Position numbers: made by a program. From the IMG/VR virus record IMGVR_UViG_2874927903_000002: a stretch of DNA of 36,877 nucleotides; one strand, written 5' to 3'. This document shows, one piece after another, positions 15,001-18,000 of this stretch. The first letter of the stretch is position 1, and each line of letters opens with the position of its first letter. This DNA comes from a virus. Its lineage: Duplodnaviria; Heunggongvirae; Uroviricota; Caudoviricetes.

Positions 15001-18000
15001 TGCCCCCTGCTGCGCAGGTGACCAAGTCGCAGCGTTAGCTGTATGTCACAACTGAATGAAAAAAGGCGGCTATTATACTGGAAATTCTGCCGCACCGTAA
15101 GAGCCTGGCCCGCGCTGGAACGCCTCGTTACCACTTTATATCGGGCCTGAAATCAGACTCTACGCCAGTTTGCTATAAAGGTGTTGCCCGAACTCATAAA
15201 CATTAACAAAATTTGTCGTTCCGCCATCGGCTAATCGCATTAAGGTATGAGGCACGATTTTGTTTTTTCAGGAGTCAGCATGCTTGAACTTAATGCTAAA
15301 ACCACTGCGTTGGTGGTGATCGATTTACAAGAAGGCATCTTACCTTTTGCCGGTGGTCCACATACTGCCGATGAGGTAGTTAATCGCGCCGGGAAGCTGG
15401 CGGCGAAATTTCGCGCCAGCGGTCAGCCCGTGTTTCTGGTGCGAGTTGGCTGGTCTGCCGATTACGCCGAAGCATTAAAACAGCCGGTTGATGCCCCGTT
15501 ACTTTATTCGTACCCCTTATAATGGGGTGTTAGCCAGCCAGACCCGGCATGATTACTGCCCCCAGTCGTCCATGATCCGGGGGGGATGTCACCGGGTCTG
15601 GTGGGGCGCTGGTAACCGCTAATAGGGGTCAGGTCAGGCACTTTTGCCGGGACCGTCTGTAACGTGGATGCCGGTACCTGCTCCCCGTGGTTATCTGGTT
15701 AACCCATATACAAGGGAGACAGAATGACCGAATCCAGCGATTACGAATCCGTCCAGGTCTTTATCGGCGTTGATGTCGGTAAAGATACGCATCACGCTGT
15801 TGCCATTAATCGTTCAGGTAAACGCCTGTTCGATAAAGCATTACCCAACGACGAAAACAAACTCAGGTCGCTAATATCTGACCTGAAACAACATGGTCAG
15901 ATACTGCTGGTTGTTGATCAGCCAGCTACCATCGGTGCGTTACCTGTCGCCGTTGCCCGCTCAGAAGGAGTCCTTGTCGGATACCTCCCTGGACTGGCCA
16001 TGCGCCGCATAGCCGACTTACACGCCGGTGAAGCTAAAACTGATGCTCGTGACGCTGCCATCATTGCCGAAGCTGCCCGTACCCTGCCTCACGCGCTACG
16101 CACGCTGAAACTGGCTGACGAGCAAATCGCCGAACTCTCCATGCTCTGCGGCTTCGATGATGATCTTGCCGCACAGACAACGCAGGCCAGCAACCGTATC
16201 CGCGGCCTTCTGACCCAGATACATCCGGCACTGGAGCGCGTTCTCGGTCCGAGACTTGAGCACCCGGCGGTACTCGATCTTCTCCAGCGATATCCCTCAC
16301 CAGAAAAACTCGCTTCGCTGGGTGAGAAGAAGCTGGCAGCCCAGCTCTGCAAACTTGCGCCTCGTCTGGGTAAACGCCTTGCAGCAGACATAGCTCAGGC
16401 ACTGGCCGAACAAACCGTCGTCGTTCCCGGCACGAATGCCGCTGCCGTAGTACTGCCACGTCTGGCACTCCAGCTCATCACGCTGCGTAAGCAAAGAGAC
16501 GAGGTGGCGCTTGAGGTAGAACAGCGAGTTCTTGCTCACCCTCTTTACCCGGTCCTGACCAGTATGCCCGGAGTCGGTGTCAGGACCGCAGCCAGACTCC
16601 TCACCGAGGTCGCCTGCCGCGCCTTCGCCTCTGCCGCACATCTCGCTGCTTATGCTGGCCTTGCGCCGGTAACTCGGCGATCCGGCTCGTCAATACGCGG
16701 TGAGCATCCCTCGCGACGGGGTAATAAAGCTCTCAAACGGGCGTTGTTCCTGTCGGCCTTCGCCGCGCTCAGGGATCCGCTCTCCAGGGCTTACTACACC
16801 CGCAAAATGAGTCAGGGAAAACGACACAATCAGGCGCTTATCGCCCTGGCGAGACGACGCTGCGACGTTCTGTTCGCCATGATGCGCGACGGGACTTTTT
16901 ATACCCCGCAGGGGTCATAACATGCTTGACAACTTAATAGGGGCACTCCCCGCTAAAGTGTTGCCCGAAAACTGGTGGCAACATCCAGCTGCATTAGGTG
17001 CAACTGACAGTGATATCGAAATCATCAAACGTCAGTGGGGTGCGTTTTACGGTACGGATCTGGAGTTGCAACTGCGCCGCCGAGGTATCGATACAATAGT
17101 GTTATGTGGGATCTCGACCAATATCGGTGTTGAATCCACCGCCCGCAATGCCTGGGAACTTGGCTTTAATCTGGTGATTGCCGAAGACGCCTGTAGTGCC
17201 GCCAGCGCCGAGCAACACAATAACAGCATTAATCATATCTACCCGCGCATCGCCCGTGTGCGTAGCGTGGAAGAGATCCTTCACGCGTTATGATTTACAT
17301 CGGTCTACCGCAATGGTCGCATCCTAAATGGGTGCGGTTGGGGTGATGCTGCCAACTTACTGATTTAGTGTATGATGGTGTTTTTGAGGTGCTCCAGTGG
17401 CTTCTGTTTCTATCAGCTGTCCCTCCTGTTCAGCTACTGACGGGGTGGTGCGTAACGGCAAAAGCACTGCCGGACATCAGCGCTATCTCTGCTCTCACTG
17501 CCGTAAAACATGGCAACTGCAGTTCACTTACACCGCTTCTCAACCCGGTACGCACCAGAAAATTATTGATATGGCCATGAATGGCGTTGGATGCCGGGCA
17601 ACTGCACGCATTATGGGCGTTAGCCTCAACACGATTTTACGTCACTTAAAAAACTCAGGCCGCAGTCGGTAACCTCGCGCATACAGCCGGGCAGTGACGT
17701 CATCGTCTGCGCGGAAATGGACGAACAGTGGGGATACGTCGGGGCTAAATCGCGCCAGCGCTGGCTGTTTTACGCGTATGACAGGCTCCGGAAGACGGTT
17801 GTTGCGCACGTATTCGGTGAACGCACTATGGCGACGCAGGGGCGTCTTATGAGCTTGCTGTCACCCTTTGACGTGGTGATATGGATGACGGATGGCTGGC
17901 CACTGTATGAATCCCGCCTGAAGGGAAAGCTGCACGTAATCAGCAAGCGATATACGCAGCGAATTGAGCGGCATAACCTGAATCTGAGGCAGCACCTGGC

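What the first reader, a model, noticed from the sequence alone, without database searches (positions are those of the whole stretch)
15503..15723. Second IS110-family element has a 220-bp structured left end and an AC core at both junctions inside yecD
The recombinase gene (15724-16920) is preceded by about 220 bp containing hairpins (CCAGACCCGG...CCGGGTCTGG; CCCCTTATAATGGGG) and a motif TAATAGGGG that recurs at the right end of the element. The dinucleotide AC occurs at both junctions, and removing the element plus one AC restores the yecD frame (…DAPLL|LPAKV…). This is the signature expected for core-dinucleotide recombination guided by an RNA encoded in the left end.
Basis: partly seen in the sequence, partly recalled or inferred. 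Interest (0 to 1): 0.55.

Follow-up and report, generated by a model that had tools for sequence, protein, structure and literature searches.

The report
Known bridge-RNA insertion sequence in yecD
The 220-bp structured stretch is the left end of the catalogued insertion sequence ISEc20/ISSfl4 and encodes its conserved guide ("bridge") RNA, which aims the element at runs of C such as the one in this yecD allele; the general idea was right, but the proposed "AC" junction is wrong and the biology is already known.

Summary
The element is ISEc20/ISSfl4, an IS110-family, IS110-group insertion sequence. It spans window 15498-16945 and sits in yecD in the same orientation as the gene.

**Confirmed.** Its 226-nt left end (15498-15723) is structured and conserved. 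In 61 relatives from Proteobacteria and Actinobacteria, 18 of 28 scaffold base pairs show compensatory changes, and 0 of 500 shuffles reach the observed values.

The fold has the bridge-RNA layout:
- a 5' hairpin;
- a target-binding domain with CCCCC and GGGGGG guide strands;
- a donor-binding domain with a strand identical to the right end (TAATAGGGG, which covaries with the right end across the family) and a strand complementary to the left end (GUAACGUGG).

**Target.** Across 48 independent insertion sites the target is a C-run: four or five C on the left and six C on the right.

**Refuted.** Uninterrupted yecD reads GATGCCCCCTCCCCCGCT (DAPSPAKV). The left "AC" lies inside GTTAC, which is invariant element DNA. 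The true core is a C-led dinucleotide, either CA or CC, and I could not resolve which.

**Novelty.** Durrant et al. 2024 already list ISSfl4/ISEc20 as carrying a left-end bridge RNA. This is ordinary and already known. The curiosities are the poly-C targeting, a one-base deletion in this copy's target guide, and tandem arrays elsewhere.

The parts
15281..15497 (+). 5' part of yecD. It ends in the left half of the target C-run (GATG CCCC, C-run 15494-15497).
   Evidence: Alignment to uninterrupted yecD of E. coli E110019 and K-12. The left C-run is 4 or 5 C in other Shigella assemblies with the same insertion.
15498..15723 (+). Non-coding left end (LE) of ISEc20/ISSfl4, 226 nt. It encodes the bridge RNA.
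   Evidence: The left boundary is set by 53-61 homologous elements that all begin GTTAC(T/C)(T/A)T after unrelated flanks.
15498..15505 (+). LE terminus GTTACTTT. It is the right-donor half-site, complementary to the RDG, and holds the -10-like hexamer TACTTT (15500-15505).
   Evidence: GTTAC is nearly invariant. The revcomp of GUAACGUGG (15659-15667) is CCACGTTAC. The spacer to the RE TTGACA would be 16-18 nt depending on the junction.
15512..15528 (+). 5' stem-loop (ACCCC-TTATAAT-GGGGT).
   Evidence: Covariation: 82 cells changed on both sides against 39 in shuffles, 0 of 500 shuffles as high.
15537..15602 (+). Target-binding domain. The outer stem is 15537-15547 with 15592-15602 and encloses the two target guides.
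   Evidence: Helix 1 has 11 pairs, 6 with compensatory changes, 98.4% paired.
15557..15564 (+). Left target guide (LTG) UGCCCCCA. It has the same sense as the C-run top strand.
   Evidence: CCCCC is nearly invariant in 61 relatives. Left flanks of 48 sites are C at positions -4 to -1. There is no RNA-RNA compensatory change with the G-run.
15577..15588 (+). Right target guide (RTG) CCGGGGGGG-AUG. This copy lacks the U found in other copies (CCGGGGGGUGAUG).
   Evidence: The G-run is nearly invariant. Right flanks are C at +1 to +6. The 1-nt deletion shows against 8 other ISEc20 copies and is shared with L086 and L088.
15604..15685 (+). Donor-binding domain. The outer stem is 15604-15618 with 15672-15685, and the inner hairpin is 15632-15654.
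   Evidence: Helix 2 has 12 pairs, 8 with compensatory changes. Helices 3 and 4 have 4 of 5 pairs with compensatory changes.
15620..15628 (+). Left donor guide (LDG) UAAUAGGGG, identical to the right-end terminus.
   Evidence: Family-wide, the guide matches the RE over 7-10 nt. The G/A position covaries: G/G in 41, A/A in 10, and neither G/A nor A/G in any.
15659..15667 (+). Right donor guide (RDG) GUAACGUGG, complementary to (C)CACGTTAC, which is the predicted RE-LE junction.
   Evidence: Invariant in 61 relatives. Two lineages carry RE joined to CGTTAC pseudo-sites: L008/L010 and L047.
15724..16920 (+). Recombinase gene, 398 aa, full length. AGGGAGA at 15714-15720 is a likely ribosome-binding site.
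   Evidence: Pfam PF01548 (6.9e-49) and PF02371 (7.1e-22). NCBIfam NF033542 at 239 bits, cut-off 140. It is 100% identical to L003 and L004.
16921..16945 (+). Right end (RE), 25 nt. It holds the -35 hexamer TTGACA (16926-16931) and the left-donor half-site TAATAGGGGCA (16935-16945).
   Evidence: The family-wide conserved sequence is GCTTGAC(A/G)A...ATAGGG(G/A)CA followed by C-runs.
16946..17293 (+). 3' part of yecD. It starts with the right half of the target (C T CCCC GCT).
   Evidence: The same right junction is in 8 Shigella chromosome assemblies. The run after T is one C shorter than in the E. coli allele.

Best explanation
Window 15498-16945 is a copy of ISEc20/ISSfl4, an IS110-family insertion sequence of the IS110 group.

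**Shown**
- The left end is transcribed in the sense of the recombinase gene into a bridge RNA of about 175 nt (roughly 15512-15686).
- A covarying scaffold (a 5' hairpin and two stem-enclosed domains) displays four nearly invariant single-stranded segments.
- In the first domain, UGCCCCC(A) and CCGGGGGG(U)G read the two strands of a C-run target.
- In the second domain, (U)AAUAGGGG has the sequence of the right-end terminus, and GUAACGUGG is complementary to the left-end terminus.
- The family inserts in one orientation into C-runs.

**Inferred by analogy with IS621**
- The excised circle joins the right end to the left end. This probably gives ...ATAGGGGCA-C-GTTAC... and brings the right-end TTGACA about 17 nt from TACTTT to drive RNA and recombinase expression.
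- Recombinase dimers loaded with the two loops synapse circle and target and exchange strands at a 2-nt core.

**This insertion.** It used the C5-T-C5 tract of a non-K-12 yecD allele and split the gene.

**Core.** The core is most likely CA (donor GGGG[CA]CGTTAC, meeting CC in most natural targets). The alternative is CC (GGGGCA[CC]GTTAC).
For: **Identity.** RefSeq annotation ISEc20, 99.5% identity, in 1463 of 5426 E. coli genomes. Pfam and NCBIfam agree. Durrant et al. 2024, Supplementary Table 5, lists 'ISSfl4 | LE | IS110 | ISEc20;ISSfl4'.

**Boundaries.** They come from uninterrupted yecD and from the family alignments.

**Structure**
- 97% of cells are paired.
- 18 of 28 pairs, and 139 cells, show compensatory changes.
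- 0 of 500 shuffles reach the observed values, and sliding the partner columns drops pairing to 29-52%.
- The 5' hairpin is also supported.
- Many G-U pairs fit only the + strand as RNA.

**Guides**
- The guide strands show no RNA-RNA compensation.
- LDG and RE covary.
- RDG is invariant and complementary to CACGTTAC.
- The profile of 48 target sites is C at -4 to -1 and +1 to +6.

**Comparison with IS621.** The guide rules and the IS621 sequences used for comparison are. The IS621 LDG ACAGUAUC|A stops after the first core base, as AUAGGGGC|U does here.

**Promoter.** There is no sigma-70-like promoter inside the integrated copy. The RE TTGACA and LE TACTTT lie 16-18 nt apart in a junction.
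Against: - No circle junction was recovered, so the junction base or bases are inferred.
- There are no expression or binding data.
- All 61 relatives have nearly the same target guides and the same kind of target. There is therefore no guide-target covariation, and the CCCCC and GGGGGG strands could also simply pair with each other.
- Under the CA-core model most natural targets mismatch the second core base, and the left C-runs are 2-3 nt shorter than the guide.
- Under the CC-core model the LDG stops short of the core.
- The occupied yecD site is one C short to the right of the T relative to the E. coli allele under every conservative model.
- The junction -10 hexamer is weak: TACTTT, 3 of 6.
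Confidence: 0.82

Rival explanations
1. The element runs from 15503 to about 16944, the core dinucleotide is AC at 15501-15502 and 16945-16946, and the empty site is ...CCCCGTT-AC-TCCCC... (DAPLLPAKV).
For: AC is physically present at both places. Removing the interval keeps yecD in frame. The right-hand AC (16945-16946) overlaps one candidate donor core (GGGGC[AC]GTTAC).
Against: - Uninterrupted yecD is GATGCCCCCTCCCCCGCT (E110019-type) or GATGCGCCCTCACCGGCT (K-12). Both encode DAPSPA and neither contains GTTA.
- GTTAC starts all 60 homologous elements next to unrelated flanks, so it is element DNA.
Confidence: 0.02
2. The left-end structure is not a guide. It would be a cis-acting 5' leader controlling recombinase translation or stability, or a set of DNA or protein-binding hairpins. 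Poly-C targeting would be read by the protein.
For: - The target guides never vary, so RNA-target pairing is not demonstrated by covariation.
- CCCCC and GGGGGG can pair with each other in the minimum-energy fold.
- The leader directly precedes the ribosome-binding site.
Against: - The LDG tracks the right-end sequence across clades, G/G 41 and A/A 10 with neither G/A nor A/G seen. A translational leader has no reason to do that.
- The RDG is complementary to the left terminus.
- The domain order and guide placement copy the experimentally proven IS621 bridge RNA.
- Durrant et al.'s RNA structural covariance-model search detected a bridge RNA in this element's LE.
Confidence: 0.06
3. This particular copy is a decaying, cis-defective fossil. 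Its bridge RNA carries a 1-nt deletion in the right target guide (the U of GGGGGGUG is lost at 15585/15586). It is fixed in yecD across Shigella lineages, and it has no promoter of its own while integrated.
For: - The deletion shows against 8 other copies and is shared by L086 and L088.
- The U pairs with the core A (CA model) or acts as the handshake base for the RE-terminal A (CC model).
- There is no internal promoter.
- The same insertion is present in at least 8 assemblies.
Against: - The recombinase ORF is intact and identical to other copies.
- Other copies could supply RNA in trans.
- The variant sits in a homopolymer, and these assemblies disagree on homopolymer lengths (element length 1445-1449), so it may be a sequencing artefact.
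- yecD read-through could transcribe the LE.
Confidence: 0.3

Closest known systems
ISSfl4 / ISEc20 (ISfinder names; IS110 family, IS110 group)
   Same: It is this element. Nucleotide identity to RefSeq ISEc20 copies is 99.5%. The protein matches the ISSfl4 sequence in Durrant et al., Supplementary Table 5, which records a bridge RNA detected in the LE.
   Different: This copy lacks one U in the right target guide. In the papers I could read, only the end that carries the RNA is recorded. Guides, target and core are not described.
IS621 bridge RNA system (Durrant et al. 2024, PMC11208160; Hiraizumi et al. 2024, PMC11208158)
   Same: - The recombinase has the same domains.
- The RNA is LE-encoded and about 175 nt.
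- The order is 5' hairpin, target loop, donor loop.
- The 5' strand of each loop has the sense of the DNA top strand, and the 3' strand is complementary to it.
- The LDG matches the left donor plus the first core base and then mismatches (ACAGUAUC|A against AUAGGGGC|U).
- The RE carries a -35 for a junction promoter.
   Different: - There is no detectable RNA sequence similarity.
- The recombinase is 398 aa, from the IS110-proper branch (395-455 aa), against 315-330 aa for the IS621/IS492 branch.
- The target is a C-run rather than a REP sequence, so the two target guides are complementary to each other.
- The core is not CT.
- The junctions are usually CC on the left and CA on the right rather than an identical dinucleotide.
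ISEc21 seekRNA system (Siddiquee et al. 2024, PMC11187229)
   Same: It is an IS110-type element with an upstream non-coding region that is required for circle formation and targeting. A promoter forms at the circle junction, and no target duplication occurs.
   Different: It belongs to a different branch (345-385 aa) with a different target, a conserved IS3-family transposase codon region. It has been tested experimentally, whereas ISEc20 has not.
IS1111-group elements (ISEc11, IS4321/IS5075) and ISSso6
   Same: They have the same recombinase family and the same RNA-guided logic.
   Different: IS1111-group members carry the RNA in a long right end and have subterminal inverted repeats. ISEc20 has a long LE (226 nt) and a short RE (25 nt). 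The window's other IS110-family element, ISSso6, shows no significant protein similarity to it by BLASTP.

Membership tests
IS110 family (IS110 group) bridge-RNA insertion sequence | Recombinase with an N-terminal DEDD/RuvC-like domain and a C-terminal Tnp domain (PF01548 and PF02371) | tested here: met
   PF01548 at 6.9e-49 (residues 14-168) and PF02371 at 7.1e-22 (residues 277-358). NF033542 'IS110 family RNA-guided transposase' at 239 bits, cut-off 140.
IS110 family (IS110 group) bridge-RNA insertion sequence | Long non-coding left end, short right end, no terminal inverted repeats | tested here: met
   LE is 226 nt (15498-15723) and RE is 25 nt (16921-16945). The termini GTTACTTT and ...AGGGGCA are not inverted repeats.
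IS110 family (IS110 group) bridge-RNA insertion sequence | Conserved structured RNA in the LE with two stem-enclosed internal loops | tested here: met
   RNAalifold consensus and pair counts on 61 sequences: 18 of 28 pairs compensatory, 0 of 500 shuffles as high, slid controls collapse. Rfam 15 has no model for it.
IS110 family (IS110 group) bridge-RNA insertion sequence | Donor loop: the 5' strand has the sense of the RE terminus and the 3' strand is complementary to the LE terminus | tested here: met
   UAAUAGGGG (15620-15628) equals the RE at 16935-16943. LDG and RE covary. GUAACGUGG is the revcomp of CCACGTTAC.
IS110 family (IS110 group) bridge-RNA insertion sequence | Target loop: the 5' strand has the sense of the left target and the 3' strand is complementary to the right target | tested here: met
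   UGCCCCC and CCGGGGGG correspond to flanks that are C at -4 to -1 and +1 to +6 in 48 sites. No guide-target covariation is available because neither side varies.
IS110 family (IS110 group) bridge-RNA insertion sequence | A 2-nt core shared by donor and target and present at both junctions, with no target duplication | tested here: inconclusive
No duplication beyond C's is seen.
IS110 family (IS110 group) bridge-RNA insertion sequence | Circular intermediate whose RE-LE junction forms a sigma-70 promoter | tested here: inconclusive
   The conserved TTGACA in the RE and TACT(T/A)T in the LE would lie 16-18 nt apart. No circle junction was found in metagenome or viral scans. Tandem arrays carry CCCC spacers.
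IS110 family (IS110 group) bridge-RNA insertion sequence | RNA expressed, bound by the recombinase and required for recombination | not testable with these tools
   This needs RNA-seq, co-purification and in vivo assays.
IS1111 group | RNA in a long right end and subterminal inverted repeats of 7-17 bp | tested here: not met
   The RE is only 25 nt and the structured RNA lies in the LE.

The most novel reading that the evidence does not exclude
The IS110-proper clade (ISEc20/ISSfl4 and relatives at 73-82% protein identity in Burkholderiales and Microbacteriaceae) is a fixed-specificity bridge system aimed at homopolymeric C-runs.
- Its two target guides (CCCCC and GGGGGG) are mutually complementary and may hold the target loop closed.
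- It recombines with a core that usually differs between donor (CA) and target (CC). This leaves systematically asymmetric junctions, CC on the left and CA on the right, as expected if the top-strand information is what gets inherited.
Probability: 0.3. Interest if true: 0.45.

Novelty: already known. Interest (0 to 1): 0.2.

Why it matters
It matters little as a discovery. The element is catalogued and bridge RNAs are established. This very IS was already recorded as carrying one in its left end.

The practical value lies elsewhere:
- It corrects the element boundaries and the junction.
- It shows that whether yecD is a target depends on synonymous codon choice. The C5-T-C5 allele is a target, and the K-12 GCGCCCTCACCG allele is not.
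- It gives a worked guide map for the IS110-proper branch. In the papers I read, the tested systems come from other branches (IS621, ISEc21). The map could seed experiments on core-mismatch tolerance and homopolymer targeting.

Tried and rejected
1. **Rfam 15.** Neither the gathering threshold (whole window) nor an E-value threshold up to 10 (LE only) found a relevant family.
2. **Metagenome scan** for ATAGGGGCA-N0-4-GTTACT, to catch circle or tandem junctions. It gave 120 hits.
3. **Viral-contig scan** for the ISEc20-specific junction. It gave 0 hits.
4. **Empty sites for other Shigella copies.**
   - The hydrolase site (L007 against L084) and the dgcE site (L009 against L083) are pure C-runs whose length varies between strains, so they cannot fix the crossover register.
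   - The ibsA-mdtA site has lost its right flank.
5. **G before the left C-run as a guide-specified base.** It is G in 30 of 48 sites. I rejected this as weak, because G is the commonest non-C base in these GC-rich genomes.
6. **An IS621-like ATA...TAT subterminal repeat around the donor.** It is present in some relatives but not conserved, so I dropped it.
7. **L003 and L004 junctions (CACCCCCCCGCT).** I discounted them because they conflict with 8 other assemblies and L003 carries other odd differences.
8. **Durrant et al.'s supplementary alignments.** I searched for this family's guides and found none in the held files.
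Full report
**What is at the coordinates.**
- CCAGACCCGG (15538-15547) pairs with CCGGGTCTGG (15592-15601).
- The hairpin CCCCTTATAATGGGG lies at 15513-15527.
- The 398-aa ORF lies at 15724-16920.
- TAATAGGGG occurs only twice in the window, at 15620-15628 and 16935-16943, against 0.10 expected.

The ORF carries Pfam DEDD_Tnp_IS110 and Transposase_20. It also passes NCBIfam's 'IS110 family RNA-guided transposase' model.

The whole element is 99.5% identical to copies annotated 'IS110-like element ISEc20' in 1463 of 5426 complete E. 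coli genomes. Durrant et al. cluster ISEc20 with ISSfl4 of Shigella flexneri.

The window is Shigella-like. Identical copies lie in yecD of several Shigella chromosomes. The region is crowded with IS1, IS2 and ISSso6.

**Boundaries and the junction.** Uninterrupted yecD of E. coli E110019 reads CCGGTTGATGCCCCCTCCCCCGCTAAAGTG (VDAPSPAKV). K-12 encodes the same peptide as GATGCGCCCTCACCGGCT.
- The window's left junction reads GATGCCCC|GTTACTTTATTCG.
- The window's right junction reads TAATAGGGGCA|CTCCCCGCT.

I fetched 80 related loci, with protein identity of 73-82% for all but the near-identical enterobacterial copies. They come from Burkholderiales, other Proteobacteria and Microbacteriaceae. 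Every complete element starts with GTTAC(T/C)(T/A)T and ends with ATAGGG(G/A)CA, next to unrelated flanks. GTTAC (15498-15502) is therefore element DNA.

The right junction GGGGCA|CTCCCCGCT is reproduced in 8 independent Shigella assemblies. The left C-run is 4 or 5 in different assemblies. To the right of the T the occupied site has four C where the E. coli allele has five, and no conservative model explains that.

**The target.** Across 48 non-redundant insertion sites of the family:
- positions -4 to -1 are C in 44-47 sites;
- positions +1 to +6 are C in 41-46 sites;
- beyond that the flanks are random.

The family therefore inserts, in one orientation, into C-runs of roughly 9-11 nt.
- yecD qualifies only in the allele class whose synonymous codons give C5-T-C5.
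- A second S. flexneri site, upstream of ibsA, has the same CCCCCTCCCCC motif in E. coli.

**The RNA.** An alignment of 61 distinct left ends gives a consensus fold. I split its pairs into scaffold pairs and guide-guide pairs.

Scaffold:
- It comprises the outer stem of domain 1 (15537-15547 with 15592-15602), the outer stem of domain 2 (15604-15618 with 15672-15685) and the inner hairpin (15632-15654).
- 97% of cells are paired.
- 18 of 28 pairs, and 139 cells, have compensatory changes.
- None of 500 shuffles reaches the observed values.
- Sliding the partner columns drops pairing to 29-52%.

The 5' hairpin is also supported. Frequent G-U pairs fit only the + strand, so the RNA is read in the sense of the recombinase gene.

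The segments RNAalifold pairs inside the two domains (CCCCC with GGGGG, and AUAGGGG with the GUAACG region) show no compensatory change at all. This is what is expected of guide strands constrained by DNA partners. The single-sequence fold is unremarkable (z = -1.9), so the evidence is comparative.

**Guide assignments.** I followed the rules established for IS621. The 5' strand of each loop has the sense of the top strand. The 3' strand is complementary to it.

Domain 1:
- UGCCCCCA lies at 15557-15564.
- CCGGGGGG(U)GAUG lies at 15577-15588.
- Both match a C-run.

Domain 2:
- UAAUAGGGG (15620-15628) equals the right-end terminus.
- GUAACGUGG (15659-15667) is the reverse complement of CCACGTTAC. 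That is the left-end GTTAC preceded by C and by the right-end CA.

The donor guide tracks the right end across clades. At the variable position the pairs are G/G in 41 elements and A/A in 10, and neither G/A nor A/G is seen. This is direct comparative evidence that the strand is matched to DNA and not to RNA.

The right end also carries a conserved TTGACA. In a circle it would sit 16-18 nt from TACT(T/A)T in the left end. The integrated copy has no promoter-like site of its own.

**The core.** I could not resolve it.

Model M1 (core CA) is supported as follows:
- If the core is where the two guides of a loop overlap, as in IS621, it is CA.
- The donor is then ATAGGGG[CA]CGTTAC and the ideal target is GCCCC[CA]CCCCCC.
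- The donor guide then stops after the first core base, exactly as in IS621.
- The RDG pairs over 8 of 8 positions.
- The promoter spacer is 17 nt.
- Most natural targets would carry CC. The observed pattern of CC on the left and CA on the right is what top-strand exchange 3' of the core predicts.

Model M3 (core CC, donor GGGGCA[CC]GTTAC) is supported as follows:
- It fits the flank run lengths (5 and 6) better.
- It turns the UG after the G-run into a perfect handshake guide for the right-end CA.

The weakness of M3 is that it leaves the donor guide short of the core.

Pure C-run empty sites vary in length between strains and do not help. No circle junction was found.

Tandem arrays in E. 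coli O177 strains have RE-CCCC-LE spacers. They look like serial insertions into long C-runs.

**This copy.** Compared with eight other copies it lacks the U of GGGGGGUG in the right target guide. The assemblies L086 and L088 share the variant. That base is either core-binding or a handshake base, so the RNA of this copy may be impaired. Alternatively the difference may be a homopolymer sequencing error. The recombinase gene is intact.

**What is known.**
- Bridge RNAs (Durrant et al. 2024; Hiraizumi et al. 2024) and seekRNAs (Siddiquee et al. 2024) are established.
- Durrant et al.'s Supplementary Table 5 lists ISSfl4 (clustered with ISEc20) with 'Detected Bridge RNA End: LE'.
- I found no description of this clade's guides, poly-C target or core in the papers I could read.
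- Siddiquee et al. place IS110-proper recombinases (395-455 aa) in a different branch from the tested IS621 and ISEc21.

**Verdict.** The specific AC-core junction is wrong. The feature is a known element working by a known mechanism.

Noticed in passing
window 15585-15586 (within 15577-15588): This copy's right target guide reads CCGGGGGGGAUG. Eight other ISEc20 copies read CCGGGGGGUGAUG, and one reads G at that spot. Two Shigella assemblies (L086, L088) share the deletion.
   Followed up: partly
window 225-1764 (-) and 7022-8561 (+): Two 100% identical inverted copies of a second, unrelated IS110-family element (ISSso6, 391-aa recombinase) bracket about 5.3 kb. They are an obvious substrate for inversion.
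   Followed up: partly
window 17341-18109 and 35141-35909; 5805-7021; 11045-11169: There are IS1 copies in inverted orientation (91% identity), an IS2 transposase gene, and IS fragments repeated across the window. One IS1 lies just 48 bp downstream of the yecD stop. This IS density is typical of Shigella.
   Followed up: no
L008 and L010 (S. flexneri / ECMA0423) compared with L085 (E. coli CH4799): An ISEc20 copy inserted at GGTTTCCCCC|TCCCCCTGG upstream of ibsA now has its right end fused to mdtA at GGGGCA|CGTTACCTCA. About 600 bp is missing. The fusion point is a native CGTTAC, which matches the right donor guide. This looks like an RNA-guided adjacent deletion onto a pseudo left end. L047 (Cupriavidus) shows a similar RE|CGTTACTA junction.
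   Followed up: partly
L213 (plasmid pO177B1, NZ_CP024616.1) and L214 (NZ_CP024056.1 chromosome): There are head-to-tail tandem arrays of two and three ISEc20 copies separated by CCCC. One junction reads GGGGC-CCCC and lacks the A. The last copy is followed by C6 or C11. This looks like repeated insertion into a long C-run.
   Followed up: partly
L215 (K-12 yecD) compared with L001 (E110019 yecD): The yecD target exists only in one allele class. GCC CCC TCC CCC is the target, and K-12 GCG CCC TCA CCG is not. The peptide is the same, so synonymous codon choice decides susceptibility. One search shows two identity classes (3614 and 1812 genomes).
   Followed up: partly
window 16946-16951; L086-L092: To the right of the T the occupied yecD site has four C where the E. 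coli allele has five. The left run is 4 or 5 C depending on the assembly. The cause is unexplained: slippage, an allele difference or an imprecise event.
   Followed up: partly
L011-L082: Near-identical guide strands, and recombinases at 73-82% identity, occur in Betaproteobacteria, Gammaproteobacteria and Actinobacteria (Microbacteriaceae). This implies recent cross-phylum spread of one fixed-specificity element. Many draft assemblies contain it as a stand-alone contig of about 1.45 kb ending in C-runs.
   Followed up: no
L074 (Microbacterium sp.) right flank: Its right flank, CTCCCCGCT, is the same 9-mer as at the Shigella yecD junction. This may be coincidence, or a hint that C-T-CCCC is a favoured right half-site.
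   Followed up: no
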